64,000 nucleotides of DNA, taken from IMG/VR virus record IMGVR_UViG_3300029288_001928, positions 32,001 to 96,000 of that record. One strand, 5' to 3'. The stretch is from a virus (Duplodnaviria; Caudoviricetes). Position 1 is the stretch's first letter, and each line of letters starts with the position of its first letter. The notes under the pieces were generated by a model. The model worked only from the letters and a program-made list of their open reading frames with translations, did not search any database and had not been told where the DNA came from. Positions 25,617-48,115 of this stretch are shown in pieces. Made by a program: the position numbers and the translations under genes.

Positions 25617-25750
25617 TGCACGAATGCCAGAAAGGTTTACATCTATCAGGAAGACGAGGCGCGTGGTTCAAATCCCGCTTCCCCCATTAACGGGGGGAAT
25701 AGCTTAGTGGTTAGAGCGCGAAAAATAGACTTTTCAATTTTTGTCGTGCA
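25617..25750 (+). ncRNA. Y RNA (YrlA-like) 1 with a permuted tRNA-like domain
   Basis: Terminal stem tgcacGAATGC...ttttgtcgtgca; internal T-arm, closed acceptor (ttccccc/gggggaa), then D-arm. Confidence 0.8.
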
Positions 25751-25757
25751 TTTTTAT

Positions 25758-25831
25758 GGTCCCATCATATAACAGGCTAGTATACCAGATTTTCATTCTG
25801 GCAATCGTGGGTTCGACTCCCCGTGGGACTG
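25758..25831 (+). tRNA. tRNA-Glu(TTC)
   Basis: ccaga-ttTTCat-tctgg. Confidence 0.85.
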
Positions 25832-25839
25832 CTATTTAT

Positions 25840-25912
25840 GCCCCTGTAGCACAACTGGAAGTGCAAGTGTTTTCTACACACTAGGTTGCATGTTCAAATC
25901 ATGCCAGGGGTG
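25840..25912 (+). tRNA. tRNA-Arg(TCT)
   Basis: agtgt-ttTCTac-acact. Confidence 0.85.
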
Positions 25913-25914
25913 CT

Positions 25915-25975
25915 AACACGAATGCTGGAAAGTTTACATCTTCAAAAACTAAACTTTCTAAATTTTTGTCGTGTT
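25915..25975 (+). ncRNA. Minimal Y RNA 2 (Ro-binding stem only)
   Basis: aacacGAATGCtggaaagtttacatc...taaactttctaaatttttgtcgtgtt. Confidence 0.7.
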
Positions 25976-25994
25976 TTTTGTCATCCACAAACCG

Positions 25995-26022
25995 AAAGAC
26001 TCTCTTTTGGAGAGTCTTTTTT
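25995..26022 (+). terminator. Intrinsic terminator of tRNA cluster 1
   Basis: aaagactctc-ttttg-gagagtcttt followed by Ts. Confidence 0.85.
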
Positions 26023-26050
26023 GTTATAAATAATTTAGAGGTATTAACTT

Positions 26051-26911
26051 ATGAAAATATTATCATTAAATGGTGGAGGCTCACTTGGATATTGTACTGC
26101 AATATTTCTAAGAGAGTTAGAGAAGTACATAGGTGTTCCATTAATAGATTATTTTGATATGTTTGCTGGTGTATCAACAGGGTCATTGATTGCTGCTGCC
26201 TTAGCATCTGGTAAGACAGTAAATGAGATATGTTGGATGTATGAGAATGGTATTCCCAAGATTTTTAAATCACCAAAGTCATTAGTAATGCGTATATTTA
26301 AACCCAAGTTTAAAATAGATGGATTAAAGCAAGTAGTTACTGATATATTTGGAGATTCATTAATATCTGAGGCTAAAAAGAGGGTATTAGTTAGTGCAGT
26401 AAAGATTACAGGGGGTGACATTAAGCCGAAGTTTTGGAAGTCATGGGAAGACAGGGAATTATTTAGAAACGTTTTACTTGCAAGTTGTTCTGCTCCTACA
26501 TATTTTGAGCCATACAATATTCATGAAGATTATTATATAGATGGTGGGATGGCGACTAATAATGTATCAATGTGTGCAGTAGCAGATGCAGTTAAAATGG
26601 GTGTATCTTTAAACTCAATAAAGGTTTTGAACATTGCGTGTTTATCGCGGTGGTCATATGAGTTTAAAAATGCTAAGGGTTTGCAGGGGTTAAAGGATTG
26701 GGCATCTGCTGCGCCGATGGTAGCGACCACATCATCTGAACCATTAGCAGTTTATCAATGTAGTCAGATATTAGGTGAGAACAAGTTTAAACTTATTCAA
26801 TCGAAGATTGATTTAGACATAGATTCAGTAGATATAGATAGGTTAAAGGAGAGAGGATTTTGTTTATTTCCTCATTTACGAGAGACCAAGTTATTTTTAG
26901 AATCTATTTGA
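26051..26911 (+). CDS. Patatin-like phospholipase
   Basis: LSLNGGG, GVSTG (catalytic Ser), ASCSAPTYF, DGG. Confidence 0.9.
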   Translation: MKILSLNGGGSLGYCTAIFLRELEKYIGVPLIDYFDMFAGVSTGSLIAAALASGKTVNEICWMYENGIPKIFKSPKSLVMRIFKPKFKIDGLKQVVTDIFGDSLISEAKKRVLVSAVKITGGDIKPKFWKSWEDRELFRNVLLASCSAPTYFEPYNIHEDYYIDGGMATNNVSMCAVADAVKMGVSLNSIKVLNIACLSRWSYEFKNAKGLQGLKDWASAAPMVATTSSEPLAVYQCSQILGENKFKLIQSKIDLDIDSVDIDRLKERGFCLFPHLRETKLFLESI

Positions 26912-26955
26912 CTTTTGATATTTTTGGTTTAGAATAGTTGAGAAAGGTATAATTT

Positions 26956-28422
26956 GTGAAAACAAAAAAAGAAGTTTTAGAAAAATATTTTGGGTTTAAC
27001 TCATTTAGACCTGGGCAAGAAGAAGTAATTGATGAAGTTTTAAATCCCGATAATAAGGGGGTAGTATGTGTAATGCCTACAGGTGGTGGTAAAAGTTTAT
27101 TATATCAAATACCATCAATATTATTAAAAGGTACATCAATAATTGTATCTCCGCTGATATCATTGATGAAAGATCAAATAGATGCATTACATAAAAATGG
27201 TATAGATGCAGCATTTTATAATTCTTCACAATCTAAAAAGGAACAAGAATCTATTATTAATTCTTTAAATTTGGGATTAGTAGATTTATTATATGTATCG
27301 CCAGAAAGATTTGCAGATCAATATTTTTTAGATATTTTAAAAGATATGGACATTGCTTTATTTGCAGTGGATGAGGCCCATTTAATATCTCAACAGGGGC
27401 ATGATTTTAGACCATCTTATAGAAAATTAAAAAGAGCAATATTAGAATTAAATCCGAAGTCTGTAATTGCTGTTACTGCGACTGCGAAGAAAGCAGTACA
27501 AGATGACATTTGTATTCAATTAGGAATCCCATTAGCAAAAAGATTTATTAGAGGGTTCTTTAGAGATAATATATGTTTAGAATTTGTTGAATCGCATAAA
27601 GGATCAAGATTTTATGATATTGCGAATGAAGTAAAACATAGTGTAGAATATGGAATGAAAACTGGAATAATTTACACACAAACAAAAGATGATGCAGTAA
27701 TGATTTCAGAAATATTACAGAAAGATTTTAAAATACCTTGTTTATATTATCATGCTGGTTTATCTGATGATAAAAGAAAAGAAATACAGGAAGAATGGAT
27801 TATAAAAGGTGGAATAATTGCCGCTACTACTGCAATGGGAATGGGTATAGACAAAAAAGATGTAAGATTTGTATTTCATTGCGGTTTACCTGCATCAATA
27901 GAAGCATGGAGCCAAGAGTGGGGTCGTGCAGGTAGGGACGGTAATGAATCTGTTGCTAAAACATTTACAGACGTTGGCTCGGATAGTTTTTTACAAAAAT
28001 TTTTAATTAATTTATCATTGCCACCTATTAGTGAGATTAAAAAGTTTTGGTATTGGTTATATAATGAGACAAAGCACGATTTGAATTTAAAAATGACACA
28101 AGAAAAAATGCAAGAAAAGTCAAAGTGTAAATTTGTAAGTGGTGCATTATCCGTATTAAAATATAATAACATGGTTGAGACTATAAAAAGAGGAGAATAT
28201 AGAGTTAAAGAAAGATATTCTTCTATTAATGTTATTGATGAGTTAGTAGATTGGAAATCACATTTAGATAGAAGAAATTCCAAATTAGAAATGTTAAAAC
28301 AAATGATTGATTTATCATGTAACAATAGTGACTGTAGGATGTTACAAATATTAGAATATTTTGGTGATACATCATATACAAAACCATGTGGTAGATGTGA
28401 TGTTTGTCAAAAATCTATTTGA
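26956..28422 (+). CDS. recQ: RecQ-family helicase
   Basis: FRPGQEE, MPTGGGKSLLYQ, VDEAH, MGIDK, GRAGRDG, C-terminal Zn site CR...CGRCDVC. Confidence 0.92.
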   Translation: MKTKKEVLEKYFGFNSFRPGQEEVIDEVLNPDNKGVVCVMPTGGGKSLLYQIPSILLKGTSIIVSPLISLMKDQIDALHKNGIDAAFYNSSQSKKEQESIINSLNLGLVDLLYVSPERFADQYFLDILKDMDIALFAVDEAHLISQQGHDFRPSYRKLKRAILELNPKSVIAVTATAKKAVQDDICIQLGIPLAKRFIRGFFRDNICLEFVESHKGSRFYDIANEVKHSVEYGMKTGIIYTQTKDDAVMISEILQKDFKIPCLYYHAGLSDDKRKEIQEEWIIKGGIIAATTAMGMGIDKKDVRFVFHCGLPASIEAWSQEWGRAGRDGNESVAKTFTDVGSDSFLQKFLINLSLPPISEIKKFWYWLYNETKHDLNLKMTQEKMQEKSKCKFVSGALSVLKYNNMVETIKRGEYRVKERYSSINVIDELVDWKSHLDRRNSKLEMLKQMIDLSCNNSDCRMLQILEYFGDTSYTKPCGRCDVCQKSI

Positions 28423-28467
28423 CTTTTAAAATCTAACCTGTAAAATATAATTAAAGGAGTCATAAAA

Positions 28468-28896
28468 ATGACAGATTTATCATTTCCAGCAGAGTTAATA
28501 GAAAAAGTAGAATCAGACAATAAAGATGAAAAACCATTAATTACGTTAAAAAATGTAAATATGGTAGAATTTATTAAAGAGATTTTAAAAGATGAATTGG
28601 TAGAAAAATTTCTTTCCAATACTGATGTATTAGATATGTTTGCACGAAGAATTGGTGTAGAAGGTCTGCTTCGTACTTATAATAAGGAAGAAGTATGTGA
28701 TAAAATCACATGGGATTATATTAAAGAATATTTCTTAGATCATATTGAATCATCTGATATTCTTGATTATATAGGTTGGGAAACTGTATCTAATCATTTT
28801 AAGGATCATATTGATTCTGTAGAACCTAGTAAAGAAGATATAAATAATGGTGGATCTATATTGGAGAAACTGAATGCAAATAAGGGAAAAAATTAA
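28468..28896 (+). CDS. Hypothetical protein
   Basis: ORF with promoter and RBS AAGGAG. Confidence 0.55.
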   Translation: MTDLSFPAELIEKVESDNKDEKPLITLKNVNMVEFIKEILKDELVEKFLSNTDVLDMFARRIGVEGLLRTYNKEEVCDKITWDYIKEYFLDHIESSDILDYIGWETVSNHFKDHIDSVEPSKEDINNGGSILEKLNANKGKN

Positions 28897-29596
28897 ACAA
28901 ATATTAGAAGAAAATTATAAAAGTTTAGTAGGTACTTTTGGTGAAAAGCAAAATAAGGGGAAAATGTATCTTCGTAGAGAAGATGCAAAACGAAAGAGAA
29001 AAGAACGAGCAAAAGATAAATCTTCAAATAAAATAGTAGAAAATGAAGATTGTGTCGATCCAAAAGAAATAGTTAAACAACAACGCAGAAATCTCAAAGG
29101 GGGGTTAAGACTAACTCCTCTTGAGACGTTTGCTGCAAAATTAATCTATTATATAGAAACAAAAAAACAAAAACATATAATAGAAGCAATAGAATTAATG
29201 GAAGATTATCCAAAATTAGGAAAATATGTTAAAGAACAAAGTAAAAAAATACTTCCTAAATATGAATTCTGTGTTTATGCTGGTAGAGAACGTTTAGATG
29301 AAGAAATAGGTCAAATATCACAAAGATCCGATGGTGATTATCATAACTGGACACTTTCAAAAGAAAGTGTTAAATATGTATTTAATGAAAGTGAATCTCC
29401 ATATACAATGGAGTGTAAAATAGTTCCAGATGATGTTATAATATACATTCCCGCGTTTACACAATTAATGGAAAATGTTATCCTTGAAGGATTGATAGAA
29501 GAACCATCAAAAAATGTAATCAGAGATGCAAAAAAACAAGAAGAAATTATCCTACCTGGAAAATATAATGAAGGATATATTATAGGAGTTAATTAG
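28874..29596 (+). CDS. Hypothetical protein
   Basis: ORF. Confidence 0.5.
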   Translation: MQIREKIKQILEENYKSLVGTFGEKQNKGKMYLRREDAKRKRKERAKDKSSNKIVENEDCVDPKEIVKQQRRNLKGGLRLTPLETFAAKLIYYIETKKQKHIIEAIELMEDYPKLGKYVKEQSKKILPKYEFCVYAGRERLDEEIGQISQRSDGDYHNWTLSKESVKYVFNESESPYTMECKIVPDDVIIYIPAFTQLMENVILEGLIEEPSKNVIRDAKKQEEIILPGKYNEGYIIGVN

Positions 29597-29598
29597 CA

Positions 29599-29958
29599 AT
29601 GAGTATAGATAATATGCATAAAGCATTTGAAGGCTGGAAAGCTATTAAATCTGGTAAGCGTTCAGTAGAACCACCACAACCAAAAAATGATGTTGATGAT
29701 CAAAAAATAACACCAGAATTAAAAAGAAAACTTTTAATGGAAGCACAAAAAGAAGCAGATAATGCAATTGAAGATCCTGCAAAACATTTAAGAAATGCTT
29801 ATAAACAAAAAATTCAAGCAGAAAAAGCCTCAAAAACTGTTAAACTGGACCCACCAAAAACATTAATGCTATTGTGTGAAGTATCAGAAAAAGGTGGAAA
29901 AATCCTGTCAGTCGAAGAAGCAGGATTTAACGTATATAAAATAACATATATAATATAA
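29599..29958 (+). CDS. Hypothetical protein
   Basis: ORF with RBS. Confidence 0.5.
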   Translation: MSIDNMHKAFEGWKAIKSGKRSVEPPQPKNDVDDQKITPELKRKLLMEAQKEADNAIEDPAKHLRNAYKQKIQAEKASKTVKLDPPKTLMLLCEVSEKGGKILSVEEAGFNVYKITYII

Positions 29959-29967
29959 GGATTTTAA

Positions 29968-30333
29968 ATGGCACAAGAACGATTCGATAGTACATTTAGA
30001 GTAGGTGATGCGGTTACAATCATTGTAAAAGTAAAACCATATATTGATGTAAGTTTACCCCCATCAGCAAATGATTATCGTAGAGTATCATGTGTTAAAA
30101 TAGCAATTTATGATCCTCAAGAAGAATTAGTAGAAGATACAAGAGAAAATCCAAGAGATATGTTACCTGTTCCAAATAGACCAGGATGGTATTATTATAG
30201 ATATCAAACAACACCTGATATGGAACAAGGAGTATATACTGCAATTGCAACTGCATATTGTAAAATAGATACACAAGTATATCAAAATAGAAATGTACAA
30301 GAGTTTAGACTTGTAAATGATGGGATAGCCTGA
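29968..30333 (+). CDS. Hypothetical Ig-like beta protein
   Basis: VGDAVTI...IYDP...GWYYY.Y...GVYTA pattern. Confidence 0.45.
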   Translation: MAQERFDSTFRVGDAVTIIVKVKPYIDVSLPPSANDYRRVSCVKIAIYDPQEELVEDTRENPRDMLPVPNRPGWYYYRYQTTPDMEQGVYTAIATAYCKIDTQVYQNRNVQEFRLVNDGIA

Positions 30334-31085
30334 TGGCACTTTACGATAAAACTGATAATTATTCCAATTTATGTCCAGATGGTCCATCTGGTGAAACAAG
30401 AAGTGAAGTAAATCACGTTCTTGAAATAAATGAATCTCATTCAGATAACTTTTTATTAGTAATTCCACGATTACCAGTTGCGAGATATTTAAGTAGTTAT
30501 TTTAGTGAAATAACTAATCCTAAATATTTTTTTGATACTCCTGCTACATCAGGAACATCTGGTACTTCCAGTACACCAGATATATCAACATGCTCATCTG
30601 CATCTGTTACACAAGATAAAATTAGAAGAGAAGAAAATCTGGATATTACAAATTTCAGATTATATATTTCTGGATGCACTATGCCAGATGTTACTATAAA
30701 TCCAGTAACATTAGGTACACAATTTGCAGATATTAATAGAGCATCAAAAATACAATTTGGTGATTTAACGACAAATATGCAAATTAGCGAAAACTTTATA
30801 AATTATAATGTAATATTATTCTGGATGTATGCTCTCCATAACCCACAAGAATATAATAAACTATTCGGTAGACAAATGATCCAAACATTCTTTACGGAAA
30901 TTCATCTAATAGTTACAAATAACCATAGAGAAAAAATAGCAGAATTTAAATTCATAGACGCATTTCCTTCAACTATGGGCGGTCCTCAATTCGATTATAA
31001 AAACGCAGATAAAATAAATACAGCAGTCACTTGGAAACATTCTGGTATGCAACCATGTGATAACTTTATTCTAAAATACGTTTGA
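30333..31085 (+). CDS. Tail completion/sheath stabilizer (T4 gp3-like)
   Basis: MPDVTI...KIQFGDL...ENFINY..I..WM...FKFIDAFPST. Confidence 0.65.
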   Translation: MALYDKTDNYSNLCPDGPSGETRSEVNHVLEINESHSDNFLLVIPRLPVARYLSSYFSEITNPKYFFDTPATSGTSGTSSTPDISTCSSASVTQDKIRREENLDITNFRLYISGCTMPDVTINPVTLGTQFADINRASKIQFGDLTTNMQISENFINYNVILFWMYALHNPQEYNKLFGRQMIQTFFTEIHLIVTNNHREKIAEFKFIDAFPSTMGGPQFDYKNADKINTAVTWKHSGMQPCDNFILKYV

Positions 31086-31094
31086 TTTTTATTT

Positions 31095-31478: not shown

Positions 31479-31588
31479 AAAAAGTAGTTGACTTTTAATT
31501 TCGACCTGTTATAATTGATCCCAGACAAAAGAAAAACTTTTCGGAAACGAAAAGAACGAGTATAAATAAAACCTAGAGGGAACAAAAA

Positions 31589-31708: not shown

Positions 31709-31730
31709 GTAGGAATACATAGAGATTCCG

Positions 31731-31761: not shown

Positions 31762-31847
31762 AATGGTCTTTTACAATTATATATCGTGGAATATAATAAA
31801 GGTTAAACCCCTCTTGGATAGGGTAAAATCTATCCAAGAGATTTTTT

Positions 31848-31942: not shown

Positions 31943-31949
31943 CTTATAT

Positions 31950-32035
31950 GGAGAGTGATCTATACGGCGGTCTGTAGAACCGTTGCTTTTAATATGTATA
32001 GCGGCTAGCGATGGGTTCAACTCCTACACTCTCCA
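31950..32035 (+). tRNA. tRNA-Tyr(GTA) lacking a D-arm, 8/4-like (possibly a pseudogene)
   Basis: ggagagtg/cactctcc; gcggt-ctGTAga-accgt; only about 9 nt where the D-arm should be. Confidence 0.6.
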
Positions 32036-32395: not shown

Positions 32396-33661
32396 CTAAA
32401 TATTACTTTTATCTTGATTCTTGGTGAGTGGGACTCTAAACTCCACTCTGTTAAGATCAAAGAAACCAGATTCTAACCAGTAGAATCCTTTTCGGTTCCT
32501 TTGTTCTCTACGCAATTCCCAAGGAATGTCCGGTAATTCTATTTCATGATTGAGTGCAGCATTAAGATCAGAATCAATCTCACTTCCACATTCTTTACAT
32601 TTGTATAGTTTACTTTTTCTTTGTGACTTACGCACCATTCCGCAACATGAACATCTTTGACTACGATAAGTACAACTTTGCTCTTTGACATGGACCCCAT
32701 GTAATTCGCAAGTTGATAGTAACTTATCTCTGATCAAAGTGTTCGTCCAATGAGACATTAACCTTGAAGTTTTTGACTTAAAGTTAATGTTCCAAACTTT
32801 CTCTAAATTTACTTGTTTTACTTCACTTAAATTTAATCTATTAATTGACCAATTAATAAAATTCTTTCTTTCTTGTTGTTTCTTTTGGAATCTCTTACTT
32901 CCTTTTTTACATTTACTCAAACTTAACATTATAGAATCAAGTGACTTACCATGAAGATTAGTTTTTGGTGGGACAATTCCATTTGAAAGAGTAACTACAT
33001 CTTTCTTACCTTGGTCACAACCAACCACAATTCCATTTTGTTTCTTTTCTACTTTAGTTTCCCAACGAAAGTTTATCCAGTTTTCATTAAGTAAGAACGA
33101 ATTCTTAAGTTCCCAATCTTTATATTTTTTATTATGTTTATGTAATTTTACTGGTAATTTTATAAACCCATAATCTTTACCAATGGACTTTAATCTTACG
33201 AAGTAATTAAATTCACCTTCTACCTTTTCAATGTCAACACATTTAGAACTTAATTCTGGATTGAGTTTACTTATATCTGGTTTTTGTGGTTTATTTTGTT
33301 CTATTTTCTTTTCTAATTGTGAATTTGGTGTTTTCTCCCACTGATACAATCTCTTTCTTTGCTTTTCAACCGAGGCACCTATAATCCCACAAAGTTGTGT
33401 AACAAGTGAACTTAATGCTCTTGCTGATAAGTTTGTCTTTATATCAAATGAGTTATAATCAATGAATTTTGGATGATCTAATTTATTCTCATTAACATTA
33501 AATTCATAATTTTTATTTTTAACTTCCCACTTGTATCCATTTTCCCATATTTGATCAAGAATCAAACCACTTACTCTACGATATTCACTAATAAACTCTT
33601 GAAGTTTATTCAACTTATTAGTATTACTGAATTTAAGAGTATGGTTAGTCGTTCTGATCAT
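32396..33661 (-). CDS. tnpB: TnpB/Cas12f-like RNA-guided nuclease
   Basis: RuvC-I VGCDQG, RuvC-II NLE, Zn finger CSCCG..CKECG, RuvC-III DSDLNAALN. Confidence 0.9.
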   Translation of the reverse strand: MIRTTNHTLKFSNTNKLNKLQEFISEYRRVSGLILDQIWENGYKWEVKNKNYEFNVNENKLDHPKFIDYNSFDIKTNLSARALSSLVTQLCGIIGASVEKQRKRLYQWEKTPNSQLEKKIEQNKPQKPDISKLNPELSSKCVDIEKVEGEFNYFVRLKSIGKDYGFIKLPVKLHKHNKKYKDWELKNSFLLNENWINFRWETKVEKKQNGIVVGCDQGKKDVVTLSNGIVPPKTNLHGKSLDSIMLSLSKCKKGSKRFQKKQQERKNFINWSINRLNLSEVKQVNLEKVWNINFKSKTSRLMSHWTNTLIRDKLLSTCELHGVHVKEQSCTYRSQRCSCCGMVRKSQRKSKLYKCKECGSEIDSDLNAALNHEIELPDIPWELRREQRNRKGFYWLESGFFDLNRVEFRVPLTKNQDKSNI

Positions 33662-36995: not shown

Positions 36996-37109
36996 TAATA
37001 AACGCTGGTAGTATCTACTACTAGAGGGCAAGACCGTAAGCAGGTCGGAAACCAACGAAGTGCGGTCGGATTAAGTGCGGTGTGGGGGCAACTTAATCTT
37101 TCAATTTTT

Positions 37110-37179
37110 TGGGGAATGCTAGAATGTTTACATCTTTTTTGTCAAAAGAACCAATTAGACATTCTAATTTTTGTCTCCA
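37110..37179 (+). ncRNA. Minimal Y RNA 3
   Basis: tggggAATGCtagaatgtttacatc...tagacattctaatttttgtctcca. Confidence 0.7.
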
Positions 37180-37186
37180 TTTTCCT

Positions 37187-37259
37187 GGCCATGTGGTGAA
37201 AAGGCTTATCACGTTTTCCTCATAAGAAAAAATTTCTGGTTCGATTCCAGATATGGCCA
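37187..37259 (+). tRNA. tRNA with anticodon CAT (Met or Ile2)
   Basis: ttttc-ctCATaa-gaaaa. Confidence 0.8.
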
Positions 37260-37260
37260 T

Positions 37261-37400
37261 GTAGCGAATGCTAGTGAGGTTTACATCGAATGTTAATCGG
37301 CTGGTCGTAGGTTCGAATCCTACCAATAATAACGAAAGTTATTGTTGTAGCTCAGTTGGTAGAGCAGCAAAAAAATAGACTTCACAATTTTTGTCGCTAC
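37261..37400 (+). ncRNA. Y RNA (YrlA-like) 4 with a permuted tRNA-like domain
   Basis: gtagcGAATGC...tttttgtcgctac; T-arm gtagg-ttcgaat-cctac, closed acceptor with a GAAA loop, D-arm tagctcagttggtagagc. Confidence 0.85.
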
Positions 37401-37408
37401 TTTTTTAC

Positions 37409-37482
37409 GGGTGCGTAGACCAACTGGCAGAGTCTTATCGCTTAGAACGATAAAAGTGGGGGTTCGAATCCCTCCGCACCTA
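37409..37482 (+). tRNA. tRNA-Leu(TAG), short variable loop
   Basis: tatcg-ctTAGaa-cgata. Confidence 0.8.
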
Positions 37483-37485
37483 TAT

Positions 37486-37563
37486 GTCGGATGACATTAT
37501 CCAAGTGGACTTGGAGGCTGTCTGCAAAATAGTCCGTTATTGGTTCGATTCCAACATCCGACT
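37486..37563 (+). tRNA. tRNA-Cys(GCA), 8/4 fold
   Basis: gtcggatg/catccgac-U73; T-stem ttgg/ccaa; gctgt-ctGCAaa-atagt. Confidence 0.75.
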
Positions 37564-37632
37564 TTATATTGACTATTGACAACCATTAAAACTATGTTAT
37601 AATATTATCATTGCAAAAAGGAGCAATTATTT

Positions 37633-37857
37633 ATGATTCGTGTAGATAGAAAGCCTAATGAACCAATTGATAAACTTCTTCGTCGCTTCAAAAAGCGGTG
37701 CGAAAAAGAAGATCTTATCAAAGATATGAAAAAAATAGAATACTATGAATCCGATAGCGTTCGTAGACGTAGAGCAAAAAGAAAATTAGAAAAACGTCTA
37801 GAAAAAGAAAAAACAGAAGGAACAAGTCCAAAAGAAGACTTCACTTTTTGGGAATGA
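37633..37857 (+). CDS. rpsU: Ribosomal protein bS21
   Basis: NEPIDKLLRRFKKRCEKE..IKDMKK.EYYE..SVRRRR. Confidence 0.9.
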   Translation: MIRVDRKPNEPIDKLLRRFKKRCEKEDLIKDMKKIEYYESDSVRRRRAKRKLEKRLEKEKTEGTSPKEDFTFWE

Positions 37858-37873: not shown

Positions 37874-38155
37874 TCCCAAGTAGCTCAATGGTCGAGCAAT
37901 CGGCTGTCGGTGGCAGCTTTTACTGGAAACAGTAATCGAAAATTCTCCAAATTAGGGGGACTCTTAACAGGTTATGCTGATGATTATCCCTAGCCAAGCA
38001 TGAGTGTAAAAACTCAAGGCGTGTGTAGAGACTAGAAGGAGAACACCTTTAAACTGGTGATGGTATAGTCCAGACCACAAACTTACATTAGGTAGCGAAA
38101 GCTATAGTGGTATGTAACCGATAGGTTGTAGGTTCGAATCCTACCTTGGGAGCCA
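37874..38155 (+). tRNA. tRNA-Asn(GTT) with a group I intron (exons 37874-37907 and 38115-38155)
   Basis: Joined exons give atcgg-ctGT|Taa-ccgat, tcccaag/cttggga, encoded CCA. Confidence 0.9.
37908..38114 (+). other. Group I intron, 207 nt, no ORF
   Basis: P1 gctgt/gcagc with U.G at the splice site; R element gtagagacta; S element ggtatagtcc; terminal G. Confidence 0.88.
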
Positions 38156-38201
38156 ACGAGAAGTTTGATGGTTTTACTCAAAAACAAAAATCATCATTTA
38201 T

Positions 38202-38274
38202 GCGAGATAGGTGTTTAAAGATACATATCTGGTTTCCACCCAGAAGTAGTTGGGGGCGTTACCCACATCTCGCT
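38202..38274 (+). tRNA. tRNA-Gly(TCC), atypical T-loop
   Basis: tctgg-ttTCCac-ccaga; gcgagat/atctcgc-U. Confidence 0.75.
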
Positions 38275-38276: not shown

Positions 38277-38340
38277 TAGCACAAATGCTATTGAGTTTAC
38301 ACCTGTTAAATGTAAAAACTCAGTTATTTTTGTTGTGCTA
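38277..38340 (+). ncRNA. Minimal Y RNA 5 (divergent)
   Basis: tagcacAAATGCtattgagtttacacc...aaactcagttatttttgttgtgcta. Confidence 0.6.
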
Positions 38341-38347
38341 TTTTCAT

Positions 38348-42765: not shown

Positions 42766-42852
42766 ATTTAACTCTGTACGTATTTATATTTTATTTGAAA
42801 CGAATTTTCTTTTTGTTATAATAGTTGTATCGTTATTGGTTGAGGGAAATAG

Positions 42853-43329
42853 TTGAGATATCCAAAATTAGAGATAACAGAAGATTTAGTAAAACTTATT
42901 ATTCAGGAACGAATTAAGAAGTTTTTAAAAAGTTCTGTTGATATCAAATACAAAAATTTTATATCCAAAATAGATATACTTCCGTGTATTAACAATAGAC
43001 AGAAGACCTATTATGGGTTTGCATTTATTTTACCAGATAAGGTTCATTTTAGAAGAAAGTATAAATGTGTAAGTAAGAGAATAAAGACTTTTAAATTTGA
43101 GAATAAAAAATGTTTTGCAGTATTGGAGATTTGTTCTAAGACAATTAATAATGGTCCAATGTCTCCTATAAATGAATTAAGAGAAACAATATCACATGAA
43201 TTAGCGCATATATTAGAAATGAAAGTAAATGGAGAAGATACCAGATCATCAGAAAACAATTATCATGGTATAGTTTGGCAGAGATTTGCTAAACAATTTG
43301 GGTGTAAGTATTTGCATTATAATGGATAA
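42853..43329 (+). CDS. SprT-like zinc metalloprotease
   Basis: ETISHELAH...HGIVWQRFAKQFG. Confidence 0.75.
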   Translation: MRYPKLEITEDLVKLIIQERIKKFLKSSVDIKYKNFISKIDILPCINNRQKTYYGFAFILPDKVHFRRKYKCVSKRIKTFKFENKKCFAVLEICSKTINNGPMSPINELRETISHELAHILEMKVNGEDTRSSENNYHGIVWQRFAKQFGCKYLHYNG

Positions 43330-43330
43330 C

Positions 43331-43364
43331 AAAAAAAGACTGGTGAGAAAACTCACCAGTCTTT
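43331..43364. terminator. Terminator between convergent genes
   Basis: aaagactggtgag-aaaa-ctcaccagtcttt with an upstream A-run. Confidence 0.85.
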
Positions 43365-43388
43365 AGCGATTAAGCTAATTAATTAGAT

Positions 43389-43610
43389 TCAGGATGCTGA
43401 AACTAGTTTAGCCCAGAAATCGCGTTGTGGGATACGAATCTTAGCACCAGTTACAACTGATGTTGCTTCGATATAGTTACGTTCAACTGCTAAGGAATCT
43501 TCCTTTACAGTGATTGTAAATGTACCCCAATCTACACGTTGGCGCATATCAATTATAATATTACCAACTGTTGCGTCTGCGAATGCTAAGTCCGCTACGT
43601 TATAAGCCAT
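43389..43610 (-). CDS. Small, probably abundant late (virion) protein
   Basis: Own late promoter, AAGGAGG RBS and terminator. Confidence 0.6.
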   Translation of the reverse strand: MAYNVADLAFADATVGNIIIDMRQRVDWGTFTITVKEDSLAVERNYIEATSVVTGAKIRIPQRDFWAKLVSAS

Positions 43611-43741
43611 AATGACCTCCTTGGCGCAATGCCGATGAAAAGCTTGAACCGCCTTTCATAATTTATTTATATTAATATTTTATATTTTTTATTTGAAAGT
43701 TTAAAAACATAGTGATATAATATAGAAAAGGAGACAATAAA

Positions 43742-44038
43742 ATGCCTTATATTAAAGAAGAAGATCGTGAAAAGTTTTCTAGCTTAGAAAATACAGATGG
43801 TCCTTTAGTTAAAATAGGATCGCTATGTCAATCTGCAGGAGAATTGAATTATTGTTTTACAATTATTGCCCAAGCATATTTGAAGTCTAAAGGGTTAAAC
43901 TATCAGCACATTAATGATATAGTTGGTGCATTAGAAGGAGCGAAGATGGAATTCTATAGACGTATAGCGGCAAAGTATGAAGATGAAAAAATAGAACTTA
44001 ATGGTGACGTTTGTTTATTCAATGCTTATAGATTTTGA
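43742..44038 (+). CDS. Conserved phage hypothetical protein
   Basis: MPYIK...GELNY...GALEGAKMEFYRR...YEDEKI..NGDV. Confidence 0.65.
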   Translation: MPYIKEEDREKFSSLENTDGPLVKIGSLCQSAGELNYCFTIIAQAYLKSKGLNYQHINDIVGALEGAKMEFYRRIAAKYEDEKIELNGDVCLFNAYRF

Positions 44039-44044
44039 GGCATT

Positions 44045-44419
44045 ATGGACATTATAAAAGAGATTTGGTCTAGTTTAGACAAATATGCAGACAAATATAT
44101 TCCTATCGGATCTGAATCTGTTAGGTTAAATTCTCATACTCATAAGTTAGGATCTGAGGCAAAACCTCCGCAAGAAATAATAGAAAAATGTATTAGGACA
44201 TTTGTAAAGTTTTGTCAGCAAGACGAAACATTTTGGAAAGGACAAACTACAATTGTACAAATACTAGATACATTACTTGGTTTTGCACGAACGTTTCCTC
44301 GTCAACAAGAGGGAACTAAAGCAATTATAGTTGACTTCATTAATTACATTGGTACAATGAATGGAGTAAATTATTCTTTACAAACGAGTGACATATATGA
44401 CCGGATATCTAAAAAATAA
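44045..44419 (+). CDS. Hypothetical protein
   Basis: ORF. Confidence 0.5.
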   Translation: MDIIKEIWSSLDKYADKYIPIGSESVRLNSHTHKLGSEAKPPQEIIEKCIRTFVKFCQQDETFWKGQTTIVQILDTLLGFARTFPRQQEGTKAIIVDFINYIGTMNGVNYSLQTSDIYDRISKK

Positions 44420-44921
44420 AGTTGTTTATCTTTGTGGCCCATTAGGTGCCGTCGATGATGATGGTATAGGTTGGCGCAGAGAGATTACACCACATTTAGA
44501 ATCGTTAGGTATAATTGTAGATGATCCTACGAAGAGTACTGCTAGCGGTATTGGAGAGGTTGCAGATGATAAGAAGAGATTTAGGAAATTGATTTTAAAT
44601 GAAGATTTTGCCACATTAAAAGAACAATTTTGGCCAATAGTTAGAAAAGATTTACGAAGTGTTGATAAGAGTGATTTTTTGATTGTAAATTATGATGCGA
44701 AAGTTCCGACTGTTGGTACATATGATGAATGTACTAGAGCAAGTATTCAAAAGAAACCTATTTTATTAAAATATGATAAAACCCAACTAGACATGTTTAA
44801 TCCATGGGTAGTTACATGGGTTAAGAAAAATGAATTTTTTTCTAGTTGGGAAGATCTGATAGACTATTTGAAGAATAAGATAGATAATGGCATATTCAGT
44901 TCATCGACCTGGACACTTTGA
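44397..44921 (+). CDS. Nucleoside 2-deoxyribosyltransferase-like protein (paralogue of 34993-35511)
   Basis: VYLCGP...DDGIGWR...DLRSVDKSDFLI...GTYDE. Confidence 0.75.
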   Translation: MTGYLKNKVVYLCGPLGAVDDDGIGWRREITPHLESLGIIVDDPTKSTASGIGEVADDKKRFRKLILNEDFATLKEQFWPIVRKDLRSVDKSDFLIVNYDAKVPTVGTYDECTRASIQKKPILLKYDKTQLDMFNPWVVTWVKKNEFFSSWEDLIDYLKNKIDNGIFSSSTWTL

Positions 44922-44932
44922 AAGGAATAGCA

Positions 44933-45379
44933 ATGGAAACAACAACTAATAAAGTTTATTGTACATCAACAGAAATACATGAAATGTTAGATGTGTTATA
45001 TCGTAAAATTAGGGATAAAGGAACACAATTTACAAAAGTTGTTGGCATTGCAAATGGTGGATTGAATATAAGTATTCCATTGGCTAAGATGTTAAATTTG
45101 CCACATGAGCAATTAAGAATTAGTTATTATGAAGGTGATTTTATATTTGAGATGCAGGATTATAATCACAATAAAGATGATACTATTTTATTAGTTGATG
45201 ATTTAATAGATTCTGGTAAAACAGTAAATTATTTTAATAATAAGTTTAATATGTGTCAAGGAAAGAATTTATTTGTAGCATGTTTATTTTATAATGCATA
45301 TAATGACAATTTTCAATATGCAAACTTTTATGCTTGTGAAAAACCAGATGCTTGGATTATATTTCCTTGGGAAATTTGA
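44933..45379 (+). CDS. Type I phosphoribosyltransferase
   Basis: VVGIANGG, ILLVDDLIDSGKT, WIIFPWE. Confidence 0.85.
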   Translation: METTTNKVYCTSTEIHEMLDVLYRKIRDKGTQFTKVVGIANGGLNISIPLAKMLNLPHEQLRISYYEGDFIFEMQDYNHNKDDTILLVDDLIDSGKTVNYFNNKFNMCQGKNLFVACLFYNAYNDNFQYANFYACEKPDAWIIFPWEI

Positions 45380-45414
45380 GTTGACAAATCATTTAGATCT
45401 GTTATAGTTCGTTC

Positions 45415-46341
45415 ATGTTAAACCTTGGTTATTGTTGTATAAATCAGACTTTACGGAATAAAAAGATTCCTGTATATGGGTCTAGGTCTTTAAATAGAAA
45501 AAATTTTACACTCATGAAGGCTAGTCAACTGGCATTACAGAATGTTAAAGACATTTTAACTATTTTACATTGGAATGAGTCTAATAACATTCGCGTTTTT
45601 CGTATTGGATCTGAACCATTACCTAGATCAAATGATCCATTGGTAGGATATTCTATTGACCAATTGCCGGATAGTGTAGAGATTATAAAAATATTAAAAT
45701 CTATTGGAAAATTTGCATACGATCATAAACATTTACTTTCTTTTCATCCTGGCCAATTCGTATGTATTGGTTCTTCTAACGAGTCGGTTAGACAAATGGG
45801 TATACTGGCATTAGAGAGAGAAAATGAAGTAGCAGACATAATATGTTCAGAGTATAAGTCTCATTTACCTATCAATATACATGTTGGCAGTTCATATGGT
45901 TTAGATTTTTTAAACACATCTAATAGATTTATTAATTCTTTCAATTCATTATCACCAACTTTAAAGTATCGCTTGACAGTTGAGAATGACGACAAAGTTA
46001 ATGGTTGGTCTGTGCATAACTTATTTTACTATCTAAGTTTACGTATTGATATTCCTATTGTATTTGATGTTCATCATTGGAAGTTTTGTAATGATTATAA
46101 GTCTATTGATGACAATAAGATGTATAATGACTTTTTATTAGCATATTCTACATGGCATACAAATATGCAAGTGCATTATAGTGAATCTTCAAATATCAAT
46201 AAGTTAATACCAAAACATTCAGAGTATTGTACATCATTAATGCCAAAGTGGTTAAATGAGTTTAACGATATTCATATTCATATTGAGGCTAAACAGAAAG
46301 AATTGGCTGTTTTACAATATAAAAAACTAATTGACTTTTGA
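45415..46341 (+). CDS. uvsE: UV-damage endonuclease
   Basis: LGYCCIN, SFHPGQF, NIHVG, RLTVENDD, FDVHH, HYSES, EAKQKE. Confidence 0.9.
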   Translation: MLNLGYCCINQTLRNKKIPVYGSRSLNRKNFTLMKASQLALQNVKDILTILHWNESNNIRVFRIGSEPLPRSNDPLVGYSIDQLPDSVEIIKILKSIGKFAYDHKHLLSFHPGQFVCIGSSNESVRQMGILALERENEVADIICSEYKSHLPINIHVGSSYGLDFLNTSNRFINSFNSLSPTLKYRLTVENDDKVNGWSVHNLFYYLSLRIDIPIVFDVHHWKFCNDYKSIDDNKMYNDFLLAYSTWHTNMQVHYSESSNINKLIPKHSEYCTSLMPKWLNEFNDIHIHIEAKQKELAVLQYKKLIDF

Positions 46342-46402
46342 TTTTTAGAAGATATAATATTAAAACATTTGCTGGCATAAGCCAGATGAAAGGGGGCCTA
46401 TC

Positions 46403-48115
46403 ATGGCTAACAAGTCTATTTTCAAGTCGAACAAGACTCGTAATTCAGTAGTTGTAGAGGCAGCGGATTGTGTAAACAATGCTGGTGGTGTTGCTTACAA
46501 GCAAACTGACAAGCATGCTCTTGCACAATACTGTCTAACAGGTACTATTTCAAATACTTTCTATTCAAATGCTGAAGCACAATTGGATGAAATTTTAAAA
46601 TTATCCAAGAAAGTACCAACAGAGTTTATTGCTAAATTAGCAGTTTATGCCCGTGAACATGGGTATATGAAGGATACTCCTGCTGTCCTTTGTGCAATTC
46701 TTGCAGTACGTGATGTAGAATTGTTAAAGAAAGTGTTTCCTCTTGTAATGGATAACGGTAAGATGGTACGCAACTTTGTTCAGATAATCCGTTCTGGCAA
46801 GGTTGGTCGTAAGTCTTTTGGTTCTTCATTGAAGAAAATGATTCAGAAGTGGATCACATCTCGTCATGAAAATCAATTATTCCGTGATAGTGTTGGCAAT
46901 GATCCATCATTGTGTGACGTTATAAAGATGGTACGTCCTCGTCCAGCAGACAAGGTTCGTGAAAATCTTTACGCTTATATTACTGGACACCTATCATTTA
47001 GTATGAAGAACGATAAGTTAACCATTGCAAAGACTATTCCTTGTAAGGGTGAAGTAAAGACCGTAAAGGTTTCATCTAAGGATATTCCAAAGATAATTTG
47101 TGAATATGAGACATATAAGCTAACAAAGAATGGGGAAGTACCAGATGTTCCATTCCAAATGCTAACTGCATTGGATCTTGGAAAGAAAGAATGGACTTCT
47201 ATTGCAGATAACGCAAAATGGACTATGACCCGAATGAATCTAAACACATTCAATCGTCATGGTGTATTTGAAGATCGAAAGATGATTGCGAAGATAGCGT
47301 CTCGCCTATCTTCTAAGGAAGAAATTCAAAAGGCAAAAATCTTTCCATATCAGTTATTTGCGGCATATATGAATACCGAAGATGTTCCACATGAAATAAA
47401 GGAAGCATTACAGGATGCAATGGAAATTGCTATTGATAATATTCCTTCTATTGACTGTCAGGTTTATATTGCTTGTGATACCAGTGGTAGCATGAGTAGT
47501 AACATTACTGGAAATCGCGGAAGTGCATCATCTAAGATTCGTTGTATTGATGTTGCTGCACTAATCAGTTCAGCAATATTGAGAAAGAATCCAAGTGCAA
47601 AGATATTACCATTCGATACAACCGTTCATAAGTGTAACTTTAATCCAAGAGATAGTGTAATGACAAATGCACGTACTCTTGCTAAGTTTGGTGGTGGAGG
47701 AACATCATGTGCAGCACCTATTGCTACTCTAAATGCATCAAATGCTAAGGGTGATCTAGTTATAATGATTTCTGACAACGAATCATGGGCATCTTTCAAC
47801 AAACAGAATTATTATGGTGATTCGGGAACAGAAATGTCTAGTGCATGGAAGCAATTTAAACTTCGCAATCCAAATGCTAAGTTGATTTGTTTAGATCTTG
47901 TTCCAAATAACCATTCACAAGCGAAGAATTCAGAAGATGTCTTGAATATTGGTGGATTCTCTGATATTATATTTGATATATTTGCTTCCTTCATTAAGGG
48001 AGACCTATTTAATGAAGCATTTACAGCAGTCATCGAATCTGTATCTTTAGACTCCAAAAATGTTAGAAAGGCATTATCATCTGAAAAGATTGAAGTGGAA
48101 AAAGCAAAGAAGTGA
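46403..48115 (+). CDS. rsr: Ro60/Rsr (TROVE plus vWA) RNA-binding protein
   Basis: NNAGGVAY, LAQY..TG...TFY, MKDTPA, MVRNFVQIIRSG, RMNLNTF.RHGV; MIDAS DTSGSM, GGGT, SDNESW. Confidence 0.92.
   Translation: MANKSIFKSNKTRNSVVVEAADCVNNAGGVAYKQTDKHALAQYCLTGTISNTFYSNAEAQLDEILKLSKKVPTEFIAKLAVYAREHGYMKDTPAVLCAILAVRDVELLKKVFPLVMDNGKMVRNFVQIIRSGKVGRKSFGSSLKKMIQKWITSRHENQLFRDSVGNDPSLCDVIKMVRPRPADKVRENLYAYITGHLSFSMKNDKLTIAKTIPCKGEVKTVKVSSKDIPKIICEYETYKLTKNGEVPDVPFQMLTALDLGKKEWTSIADNAKWTMTRMNLNTFNRHGVFEDRKMIAKIASRLSSKEEIQKAKIFPYQLFAAYMNTEDVPHEIKEALQDAMEIAIDNIPSIDCQVYIACDTSGSMSSNITGNRGSASSKIRCIDVAALISSAILRKNPSAKILPFDTTVHKCNFNPRDSVMTNARTLAKFGGGGTSCAAPIATLNASNAKGDLVIMISDNESWASFNKQNYYGDSGTEMSSAWKQFKLRNPNAKLICLDLVPNNHSQAKNSEDVLNIGGFSDIIFDIFASFIKGDLFNEAFTAVIESVSLDSKNVRKALSSEKIEVEKAKK

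What the first reader, a model, noticed from the sequence alone, without database searches (positions are those of the whole stretch)
25617..48115. Phage Ro60 with a family of five modular Y RNAs embedded in the tRNA operons
Seen: five dispersed elements (25617, 25915, 37110, 37261, 38277) share a closing stem, (G/A)AATGC, a second stem ending GTTTACA(T/C)C, a variable apex, (T/A)A(G/A)AC and TTTTTGT(C/T). The flanking base pairs covary (gcac/gtgc, acac/gtgt, tagc/gcta, ggg/ctcc). A full TROVE-vWA gene lies at 46403-48115. Known: bacterial YrlA Y RNAs carry a CGAA-type Ro-binding helix and normally sit next to rsr, often with rtcB. Unusual here: five copies, 8-21 kb from rsr, interleaved with tRNAs, with a constant scaffold and interchangeable apices (two tRNA mimics, three short loops). 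Inference: a Ro60-chaperoned set of decoys or adaptors for tRNA repair or anti-defence.
Basis: partly seen in the sequence, partly recalled or inferred. Interest (0 to 1): 0.85.

Follow-up and report, generated by a model that had tools for sequence, protein, structure and literature searches.

The report
Five Y RNAs inside phage tRNA operons
A large uncultured phage carries five small RNA genes of the Y RNA type (partners of the RNA-binding ring protein Ro60) wedged directly between its tRNA genes. The same tRNA-array, Y-RNA and Ro60 package recurs in other big phages and in some soil bacteria, and I found no paper describing that layout.

Summary
Exactly five elements share one scaffold, at 25616-25755, 25915-25979, 37110-37183, 37261-37406 and 38277-38344. 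The scaffold is a closing helix, an internal loop (5' AUGC / 3' AUUUUUG), a second helix ending GUUUACAYC, and a variable apex.

- **Chance:** the 5' motif occurs 5 times against 0.02 expected.
- **Match to known Y RNAs:** Rfam YrlA aligns full-length to E4 (49.6 bits, E 1e-8) and more weakly to E1 and E5. All are below Rfam's cut-off of 69 bits.
- **Types:** E1 and E4 carry the YrlA tRNA-like domain. E2, E3 and E5 are short, YrlB-like hairpins.
- **Protein:** a real Ro60 gene (TROVE + Ro60-vWA, MIDAS intact) lies at 46403-48115, 8-21 kb downstream on the same strand.
- **Relatives:** my covariance model finds the family in multiple copies in about a dozen large phage contigs, in Myxococcus phage Mx1, and in Pyrinomonadaceae and Undibacterium genomes.
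- **Link to Ro60:** 6 of 6 near-complete element-bearing records encode TROVE, against 0 of 10 controls.
- **Link to tRNAs:** 24 of 42 elements abut a tRNA, against 4% by chance.

These are Y RNAs, probably released by tRNA-processing enzymes and bound by phage Ro60. Their function is untested. I rate this a new variant of a known kind. Earlier unchecked notes of this scan report similar multi-RNA sets beside Ro60-like genes on other phage DNA.

The parts
25462..25489 (+). Consensus sigma-70-type promoter (TTGACA-16-TATAAT, with TG) in front of ncRNA operon 1
   Evidence: 12 of 12 match in the scan. This is a consensus match only; function is inferred.
25534..25614 (+). tRNA-Met(CAU), with no encoded CCA. 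Its 3' end lies 1-2 nt before the closing helix of E1
   Evidence: ARAGORN, Rfam tRNA 41 bits, sequence read
25616..25755 (+). E1: YrlA-type Y RNA. Scaffold plus T arm, 7-bp closed acceptor-like stem and D arm, with a U-rich tail
   Evidence: RF02553 28.9 bits; R1 75.9 bits; fold. Its apex is conserved in L014:9518-9659, with compensatory stem changes.
25758..25913 (+). tRNA-Glu(UUC) and tRNA-Arg(UCU) between E1 and E2
25915..25979 (+). E2: short, YrlB-like Y RNA. Scaffold with a 13-nt apical loop
   Evidence: R1 70.1 bits; RF02565 YrlB 21.6 bits, weak; fold z -3.9
25994..26020 (+). Intrinsic-terminator-like hairpin closing operon 1
   Evidence: 12-bp stem followed by a T run
37110..37183 (+). 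E3: short Y RNA (GGAAUGC variant) with a small hairpin in the apex. tRNA-Met starts 6 nt after its closing helix
   Evidence: R1 81.3 bits; fold; tRNA at 37186
37186..37260 (+). tRNA-Met(CAU) between E3 and E4, abutting both
37261..37406 (+). E4: YrlA-type Y RNA. T arm, 10-bp acceptor-like stem closed by GAAA, D arm, and a linker with a UGUUAAU insertion
   Evidence: RF02553 49.6 bits, E 1e-8, full-length alignment; R1 73 bits. Its 18-nt T arm is identical to window 38128-38145.
37409..37482 (+). tRNA-Leu(UAG), starting 8 nt after the closing helix of E4
38277..38344 (+). E5: short Y RNA (CAAAUGC variant with a compensating UUGUU). tRNA-Thr starts 6 nt after its closing helix
   Evidence: RF02553 28.5 bits; R1 76.7 bits; fold
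46403..48115 (+). Ro60 (TROVE ring plus vWA with MIDAS), 570 aa, the presumed protein partner
   Evidence: Pfam; PDB sequence hits; 47% identical to Mx1 Ro60; 47-54% identical to Ro60 genes that sit next to the same RNA family elsewhere
49480..50826 (+). CCA-adding enzyme / poly(A) polymerase family protein, probably needed for the CCA-less phage tRNAs. A role on Y RNAs is speculative.
   Evidence: Pfam PolyA_pol head and RNA-binding domains

Best explanation
The five elements are genes for Y RNAs, the small RNA partners of Ro60. They belong to a phage and bacterial sub-family of YrlA/YrlB.

Proposed mechanism:
1. They are transcribed as parts of tRNA operons from strong sigma-70-type promoters.
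2. The enzymes that mature the neighbouring tRNAs cut them out. RNase P at the 5' end of the downstream tRNA would leave a 6-8-nt U-rich 3' tail. Cleavage at the 3' end of the CCA-less upstream tRNA (RNase Z-type) would set the 5' end 0-2 nt before the closing helix.
3. The constant part is the closing helix, the asymmetric loop (5' AUGC / 3' AUUUUUG) and the second helix with the UA of GUUUACAUC. This is the Ro60-binding module plus the YrlA 'anticodon-stem' equivalent, and it docks on the phage Ro60 ring.
4. The variable apex is the effector module. It is an L-shaped tRNA mimic in E1 and E4 and a short loop in E2, E3 and E5. The phage would therefore make up to five different Ro60 particles.
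5. By analogy with Deinococcus, Salmonella and Thermus phage phiLo, these particles most likely couple Ro60 to a host 3'-5' exoribonuclease such as PNPase, or gate access to the Ro60 cavity. That would let the phage handle structured RNA (tRNA or rRNA) during infection.

Shown here: the anatomy, homology to YrlA, covariation, genome-level coupling to Ro60, and abutment to tRNAs. Inferred: transcription, processing, Ro60 binding and the downstream function.
For: Homology to YrlA: the full-length RF02553 alignment of E4 includes the conserved CGAAUGC...UUGUCG module, T arm, closed acceptor stem and D arm. E1 and E5 match more weakly.

One scaffold, five copies, not chance.

Compensatory changes occur within the window and across 14 members.

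The same RNA family lies beside or near orthologous Ro60 genes:
- G002: two copies, 28 and 152 nt upstream of a 54%-identical Ro60.
- G001: at least 5 copies flanking Ro60 within 2.5 kb.
- Mx1: two copies in the tRNA array, about 11.5 kb upstream of Ro60.
- Pyrinomonadaceae tRNA arrays and an Undibacterium array, next to Ro60 genes 47-50% identical.

Co-occurrence with TROVE: 10 of 14 distinct element-bearing records against 0 of 20 controls (p 8e-6). For near-complete records it is 6 of 6 against 0 of 10 (p 1e-4).

tRNA abutment: all 5 elements here and 24 of 42 overall lie within 10 nt of a same-strand tRNA, against 3.9% for random placement.

Operon 1 has a perfect promoter match and a terminator.

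Two apex types (E1-type and E4-type) are conserved in a phage whose Ro60 is only 48% identical.

Precedent: bacterial and phage Ro60 bind two or more Y RNAs, and these tether PNPase (PMC4201824, PMC12135203).
Against: - No element reaches Rfam's YrlA gathering score (best 49.6 against 69).
- There are no expression or binding data.
- E3 (GGAAUG) and E5 (CAAAUG) depart from the published CGAA core.
- The genes lie 8-21 kb from Ro60, outside the 4-kb rule reported for YrlA (PMC4201824).
- One 82%-complete contig with five copies (G011) shows no TROVE gene.
- The phage fragment encodes no PNPase/RNase PH domain and no RtcB, so any effector would have to be a host protein.
- The control set was checked for elements only in the fetched loci, not in whole records.
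Confidence: 0.75

Rival explanations
1. Only E1 and E4 are working Y RNAs. The three short copies (E2, E3, E5) are decayed remnants that lost the tRNA-like module and persist as spacers in the tRNA operons.
For: The short copies lack the effector domain. E3 and E5 deviate from the CGAA core. Rfam support for them is weak or absent.
Against: - They score as high as or higher than E1 and E4 on the scaffold model.
- They keep both helices through compensatory changes.
- Short forms are kept in multiple copies in other phages and bacteria. All three copies in L157 are short (70-76 nt), and Undibacterium has short ones in its eight-copy tandem array.
- Bacteria have functional short Y RNAs: YrlB and Yrn2 (PMC4201824).
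Confidence: 0.08
2. The elements are Ro60-independent parts of tRNA operons, such as processing or punctuation signals, leaky terminators or insulators between tRNAs. They merely descend from or resemble YrlA.
For: They abut tRNAs. In this window a run of at least four U follows every closing helix. They lie far from Ro60 here. G011 has copies but no detected TROVE gene.
Against: - Genome-level coupling to TROVE is strong.
- In G002 and Undibacterium the RNAs sit beside Ro60 without abutting tRNAs.
- The conserved unpaired nucleotides are those of the YrlA Ro-binding module.
- Most tRNA junctions in the same arrays have no such element.
Confidence: 0.07
3. The RNAs act mainly as decoys or sponges for host factors that attack or modify tRNAs, such as anticodon nucleases and other tRNA-directed defences. 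Ro60 serves only to stabilise them, or plays no part.
For: - E1 and E4 mimic tRNA.
- E4 and its counterpart in L014 carry a UGUUAAU stretch like the 3' part of a tRNA-Asn anticodon loop.
- The phage invests heavily in tRNAs, a CCA-adding enzyme and two Rnl2-type RNA ligases.
- A Ro60-like protein of phage Bas63 counters a defence system (PMC11482910).
Against: The three short RNAs have no tRNA-like part. The acceptor stems are closed loops and no complete anticodon arm is present. No direct evidence bears on this.
Confidence: 0.1

Closest known systems
Bacterial Rsr (Ro60) with YrlA and YrlB Y RNAs (Salmonella, M. smegmatis; Rfam RF02553 and RF02565; Chen et al. 2014, PMC4201824; YrlA structure, bioRxiv 10.1101/312249)
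   Same: - Closing helix with the CGAAUG(C)...UUGUCG module.
- A second ('anticodon-like') helix with the conserved UA.
- T arm, closed acceptor stem and D arm in E1 and E4.
- One tRNA-like RNA plus short hairpin RNAs per genome.
- Same strand as Ro60.
   Different: - Five copies instead of two.
- 8-21 kb from Ro60 instead of within 4 kb.
- Embedded in tRNA operons and abutting tRNAs.
- A family signature (GWUUACAUC, AUUUUUGYC) that keeps every copy below the Rfam cut-off.
- No RtcB/RtcA context.
Thermus phage phiLo Ro60 with Yrl1 and Yrl2 (PMC12135203)
   Same: A phage-encoded Ro60 with more than one phage-encoded Y-like RNA carrying a CGAA-type motif. No phage PNPase, so the host enzyme is used.
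   Different: phiLo has two RNAs directly upstream of the gene and no reported link to tRNA genes. Its Ro60 is only distantly related (E 6e-9).
Deinococcus radiodurans Rsr-Yrn1/Yrn2-PNPase (RYPER) machine (as summarised in PMC4201824)
   Same: Modular Y RNA: a Ro-binding stem plus a tRNA-like effector end that tethers an exoribonuclease. Several Y RNAs per genome.
   Different: Yrn1's tRNA-like part has a different order of arms and an independent origin. It is encoded next to rsr. A link to PNPase is only inferred here.
Release of a non-tRNA RNA by tRNA-processing enzymes (mitochondrial tRNA punctuation; MALAT1-mascRNA; plant tRNA-snoRNA and herpesvirus tRNA-miRNA units). From my own knowledge, not tested here.
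   Same: The RNA of interest directly abuts tRNAs, so RNase P and RNase Z cuts would define its ends.
   Different: None of these concerns Y RNAs or phages. Processing here is inferred from spacing only.
Escherichia phage Bas63 gp130, a Ro60-like protein upstream of a tRNA block (PhageMaP preprint, PMC11482910)
   Same: A phage Ro60-like gene next to a tRNA array. The authors speculated that some annotated tRNAs are Y RNAs, and reported an anti-defence phenotype.
   Different: No Y RNAs were identified there. I did not examine Bas63.

Membership tests
YrlA (Rfam RF02553) | Score at or above the curated gathering threshold (69 bits) | tested here: not met
   E4 49.6, E1 28.9 and E5 28.5 bits; E2 and E3 have no YrlA hit. 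E4 nevertheless aligns over all 114 model positions with E 1e-8.
YrlA (Chen et al. 2014) | 5' motif GNCGAAN0-1G in the Ro-binding stem | tested here: inconclusive
   The CGAAUG core is present in E1, E2 and E4. E3 has GGAAUG. E5 has CAAAUG with a compensating C-to-U on the 3' strand. The leading 'GN' lies in the covarying helix and is not kept.
YrlA (Chen et al. 2014; structure in 10.1101/312249) | tRNA-like domain in the order T arm, closed acceptor-like stem, D arm | tested here: met
   Met for E1 and E4 (cmscan alignment; folds). Absent from E2, E3 and E5, which are therefore YrlB-like rather than YrlA.
YrlA (Chen et al. 2014) | Encoded within about 4 kb of the Ro60 gene on the same strand | tested here: not met
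   Same strand, but 8.1-20.6 kb upstream. In related genomes the distance ranges from 28 nt to about 12 kb.
YrlB (Rfam RF02565) | Score at or above the gathering threshold (97 bits) | tested here: not met
   Only E2 matches, at 21.6 bits, E 2.6. According to PMC4201824, YrlB was found only in Salmonella serovars.
Y RNA (functional definition) | Stable small RNA bound by Ro60 | not testable with these tools
   Needs an RNA pull-down or EMSA. The only proxy here is genomic co-occurrence with TROVE.
Ro60 / TROVE protein | TROVE HEAT-repeat ring followed by a Ro60-type vWA domain with a MIDAS motif | tested here: met
   PF05731 42.9 bits and PF25045 61.1 bits, both above their cut-offs. The query's DTSGSM aligns with Rsr's DVSGSM (the DxSxS MIDAS motif) in 2nvo.

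The most novel reading that the evidence does not exclude
A mobile three-part module (tRNA array, a diversifying family of 2-8 Y RNAs cut out by tRNA-processing enzymes, and Ro60) is shared by large phages and some bacteria. It would work as a programmable set of Ro60 particles. Each apex, including conserved tRNA-Asn-like and other tRNA mimics, would direct Ro60 and a host exonuclease to a different RNA, or would decoy a different tRNA-directed host defence. That would make it a counter-defence or tRNA-quality-control system specific to elements that import their own tRNA sets.
Probability: 0.25. Interest if true: 0.8.

Novelty: new variant of a known kind. Interest (0 to 1): 0.6.

Why it matters
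Y RNAs and Ro60 are conserved from bacteria to humans, where Ro60 is a major lupus and Sjogren autoantigen. Their function remains poorly defined, and in phages almost nothing is known.

This locus and its relatives show three things:
- Y RNA genes can be numerous, can lie far from Ro60, and can be hidden inside tRNA arrays. Standard tools miss them (all are below the Rfam cut-off) or mislabel them. ARAGORN calls a tRNA-Phe inside one relative, and Mx1 has an annotated ORF over one.
- Their ends are probably set by tRNA-processing enzymes.
- Distinct apex types are conserved across distant phages, which argues for several specialised Ro60 particles.

This gives a concrete, testable system for asking what phage Ro60 does, for example in the cultivable Myxococcus phage Mx1. 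It also supplies a covariance model that would improve annotation of phage and bacterial tRNA arrays.

Tried and rejected
- **Nucleotide relatives:** megablast of 20 kb against GenBank phages found nothing.
- **Loose pattern scan:** the 15-base 5' motif scan of IMG/VR gave mostly chance hits, 118 or more loci. They had to be filtered with the covariance model; the non-matching loci then served as controls.
- **Mx1 with R1:** the model built from the window alone was too narrow to find the Mx1 copies. Rfam YrlA and the broader R2 found them.
- **Extra copies next to Ro60:** none in the window.
- **RNA-repair and decay partners in the 133-kb record:**
  - RtcB: none.
  - RNase PH/PNPase domain: none.
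  - T4 Rnl1: none, but that search also found nothing in any control genome, so it is uninformative.
  - Two Rnl2-type ligase ORFs lie outside the window.
- **MITE or repeat origin:** rejected. Copies share structure rather than sequence, have no terminal repeats, and covary.
- **Misannotated ordinary tRNAs:** rejected. The acceptor stems are closed loops and the arm order is permuted.
- **Literature:** searches joining 'tRNA array' with Ro60, TROVE or Y RNA found no description. One search on Mx1 was uninformative. The supplements of Chen et al. 2014 and the Sim et al. 2020 review are not held, so I could not check whether their phage tables already list copies inside tRNA arrays.

Full report
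**Setting.** The window is bases 32001-96000 of a 133,443-base IMG/VR virus record that CheckV rates 62% complete. Its G+C content is 29.5%. ARAGORN finds 27 tRNA genes, all on the + strand, between 25534 and 40536. The window also encodes:
- ribosomal protein S21, IF3, an MnmA-like tRNA thiolase, a CCA-adding-type nucleotidyltransferase and a DHH/DHHA1 phosphoesterase;
- a PARP-like protein, a patatin, a RecQ helicase and UvdE.

The nearest named phage is Myxococcus phage Mx1, whose Ro60 is 47% identical. No nucleotide-level relative exists in GenBank phages.

**The observation.** Reading the sequence confirms five elements:
- E1, 25616-25755
- E2, 25915-25979
- E3, 37110-37183
- E4, 37261-37406
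- E5, 38277-38344

Each has the same parts in the same order:
- a closing helix of 4-8 bp whose sequence differs between copies;
- an asymmetric internal loop, 5' AUGC(N) and 3' (A)AUUUUUG;
- a second helix of 10-11 bp whose top is GUUUA paired with UAGAC, UAAAC or AAAAC;
- the motif CAUC or CACC;
- a variable apex;
- after the closing helix, a run of at least four U.

The evidence that this is a real family:
- The 5' motif occurs five times against 0.02 expected.
- All five fold into the same scaffold on their own.
- A covariance model of the five finds only these five in the whole record, with a gap from 70 bits down to 16 bits. A broader model run with filters off gives the same five.

**What they are.** With relaxed thresholds, Rfam's YrlA model aligns end to end with E4 (49.6 bits, E 1e-8). 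The alignment covers the closing helix, the conserved GAAUGC and UUGUCG strands, the second helix with its UA, the T arm, the closed acceptor-like stem and the D arm. E1 (28.9 bits) and E5 (28.5 bits) also match YrlA, and E2 weakly matches YrlB. None reaches the curated cut-off, so a standard annotation would miss them.

E1 and E4 are YrlA-type tRNA mimics. E2, E3 and E5 keep the Ro-binding module and the 'anticodon-like' helix but replace the tRNA body with a short loop. This resembles the short hairpin Y RNAs (YrlB, Yrn2) that accompany YrlA or Yrn1 in bacteria (PMC4201824).

The published core CGAA(N)G is intact in E1, E2 and E4. E3 has GGAAUG. E5 has CAAAUG, with a compensating change on the 3' strand.

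The protein at 46403-48115 is a genuine Ro60. It has TROVE and Ro60-type vWA domains above the Pfam cut-offs. It matches D. radiodurans Rsr, phage phiLo Ro60 and vertebrate Ro60 in the PDB, and its MIDAS motif is aligned.

**Relatives, and the link to Ro60.** Pattern scans of IMG/VR filtered with the covariance models, together with whole-record searches, find the same scaffold, usually in several copies:
- G001, 322 kb: at least 5 copies by the model, plus two more that I read by eye.
- G002: 2 copies.
- G007: 6 copies.
- G008, 433 kb: 2 copies.
- G011: 5 copies.
- G013: 3 copies.
- G014: 4-5 copies.
- G012, G015 and G019: 3 copies each. Their hit scores and spacing are identical, so I counted them as one phage.
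- G032: 3 divergent copies.
- G003 and G004: single copies.
- Mx1: two copies inside its tRNA array, about 11.5 kb upstream of its Ro60.

On 14 members from five contigs, 88% of cells pair and 14 of 18 pairs show changes on both sides. The covariation score is 0.73, against 0.24 for shuffles and at most 0.135 for slid controls. That alignment was fitted to the model, which favours the structure.

Two changes fall within the conserved modules themselves. GUUUA/UAGAC becomes GAUUA/UAAUC, and CGA/UCG becomes AGG/CCU in G001.

Placement relative to Ro60 varies:
- In G002 the two RNAs lie 28 and 152 nt upstream of a Ro60 gene that is 54% identical to the window's.
- In G001 they flank Ro60.
- Elsewhere they lie up to about 12 kb away on the same strand.

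TROVE genes are present in 10 of 14 distinct element-bearing records, and in 6 of 6 that are at least 90% complete. The comparison set was IMG/VR records of 39 kb or more that had only a chance match to the 5' motif. In that set TROVE was found in 0 of 20, and in 0 of 10 of the near-complete ones. Fisher's test gives p = 8e-6 and 1e-4. One 82%-complete contig with five copies (G011) shows no TROVE gene.

**Not only phages.** A scan of one genome per prokaryotic species, followed by the model and by tblastn and ARAGORN, shows the same scaffold in bacteria. It occurs in 3-8 copies in several Pyrinomonadaceae (Acidobacteriota) assemblies and in Undibacterium sp. Ji49W.
- In Pyrinomonadaceae the copies are interleaved in arrays of about 20 tRNA genes, and a Ro60 gene follows the array directly.
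- In Undibacterium eight tandem copies sit just downstream of the Ro60 gene, with no tRNAs in the 8-kb locus.
- These Ro60 genes are 47-50% identical to the window's.

The unit 'tRNA array + Y RNA family + Ro60' is therefore a recurrent and probably mobile module. I did not test whether the bacterial copies lie in prophages.

**Relation to tRNAs.**
- In the window, E1, E2 and E4 start 0-2 nt after a tRNA.
- E1, E3, E4 and E5 end 6-8 nt before the next tRNA.
- Across all contigs, 24 of 42 elements lie within 10 nt of a same-strand tRNA, against 3.9% for random placement in the same loci.
- The upstream tRNAs have no encoded CCA.
- Operon 1 is a compact non-coding RNA unit: a perfect sigma-70-type promoter (25462-25489), then tRNA-Met, E1, tRNA-Glu, tRNA-Arg, E2 and a strong terminator hairpin at 25994-26020.

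From this I infer that RNase P and the tRNA 3'-end nuclease release the Y RNAs. This is inference from spacing only.

**Apex modules.**
- E1's apex is conserved in G001 (L014:9518-9659). The linker CAUCUAU..GGAAGACGAG and the D arm are nearly identical, while the T and acceptor stems differ by compensatory changes.
- E4's linker carries UGUUAAU, like the 3' part of a tRNA-Asn anticodon loop. Its T arm is identical over 18 nt to that of an apparently intron-containing tRNA-Asn at 37874-38155.
- A counterpart of E4 in G001 (L014:11576-11714) has the same UGUUAAU and a similar T arm.

At least two apex classes are therefore old paralogues kept by selection. Other relatives carry only a T-arm hairpin or unrelated hairpins. 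This fits the known modular design of Y RNAs.

**Function.** Nothing here tests function. Bacterial Y RNAs tether Rsr to PNPase (PMC4201824). Phage phiLo Ro60 with its two Yrl RNAs assembles with host PNPase in vitro (PMC12135203). A Ro60-like protein of phage Bas63 counters a defence system, and its authors guessed that some neighbouring 'tRNAs' are Y RNAs (PMC11482910).

The phage record has no RtcB and no RNase PH/PNPase domain. It does have two Rnl2-type RNA ligase ORFs, about 20 kb beyond the window's end.

My best reading is a set of up to five Ro60 particles that use host nucleases on structured RNA during infection. Decoy or anti-defence roles remain open.

**Novelty.** Phage Ro60, phage Y RNAs, several Y RNAs per genome and tRNA mimicry are all published. 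I found no paper describing:
- families of five or more Y RNAs;
- their placement inside tRNA operons, abutting tRNAs and far from Ro60;
- the recurrent tRNA-array, Y-RNA and Ro60 module in phages and bacteria.

The supplementary tables of Chen et al. 2014 and the 2020 review were not available to me. Earlier unchecked notes of this scan report comparable 'shared-handle' RNA arrays beside Ro60-like genes in other phages. I did not test those. This case differs in that its handle is demonstrably the YrlA module and its protein is a Pfam-significant TROVE protein.

Noticed in passing
window 37633-37857 (+): A 74-aa ORF behind a perfect sigma-70-type promoter match (37576-37603) is a ribosomal protein S21 homologue (Pfam E 8e-14). 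It sits inside the tRNA/Y RNA region.
   Followed up: partly
window 53111-53635 (+), 63131-63859 (-), 57843-58814 (+): The phage encodes IF3 (both domains), an MnmA-like tRNA 2-thiouridylase fragment or gene, and a DHH/DHHA1 (NrnA/RecJ-like) phosphoesterase. With the 27 tRNAs and a CCA-adding enzyme, this makes a large translation/RNA island.
   Followed up: partly
The exons read as a tRNA with an encoded CCA. The T arm of its 3' exon is identical to E4's.
   Followed up: partly
window 36997-37109 (+): A 113-nt gap between tRNA-Pro and E3 folds into three hairpins (z -2.7) and has no Rfam match. It could be another small RNA or a processing spacer.
   Followed up: partly
window 37485-37563, 31949-32035 and about 38200-38274 (+): tRNA-like sequences missed by ARAGORN. 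The first two have sub-threshold Rfam tRNA-Sec hits of 34.6 and 29.5 bits. The third has a 7-bp acceptor-like helix and a UCC loop by eye. They may be extra or degenerate tRNAs that also set Y RNA ends.
   Followed up: partly
window 32396-33661 (-): A TnpB-like ORF (Cas12f1-like TNB domain) sits on the opposite strand inside the tRNA region.
   Followed up: no
window 23074-24465 (+): A PARP-like protein with WGR, regulatory and catalytic domains lies just upstream of ncRNA operon 1.
   Followed up: no
L025:1806-1880; L008:8610-8732: Annotation artefacts caused by Y RNAs. ARAGORN calls a 'tRNA-Phe(aaa)' inside the tRNA-like apex of a relative's Y RNA. The Mx1 GenBank record has a 'hypothetical protein' CDS over its second Y RNA.
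   Followed up: yes
L181, L184, L186, L187, L189, L191, L192 (Pyrinomonadaceae); L190 (Undibacterium sp. Ji49W): Bacterial arrays of about 20 tRNA genes are interleaved with 3-7 copies of the same Y RNA scaffold and followed by Ro60. In Undibacterium, eight tandem copies lie next to Ro60 with no tRNAs. I did not check whether these loci are prophages or mobile islands.
   Followed up: partly
L046:11108-11179 (-): In the contig with the closest Ro60 (54% identity), a suppressor-type tRNA with anticodon CUA (called tRNA-Pyl by ARAGORN) lies 52 nt upstream of the two Y RNAs.
   Followed up: no
L008:9732-10109: Mx1 carries a tmRNA (Rfam 117.7 bits) inside its tRNA array. It is not in the feature table of the GenBank record, and a short CDS annotated as an endonuclease partly overlaps it.
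   Followed up: no
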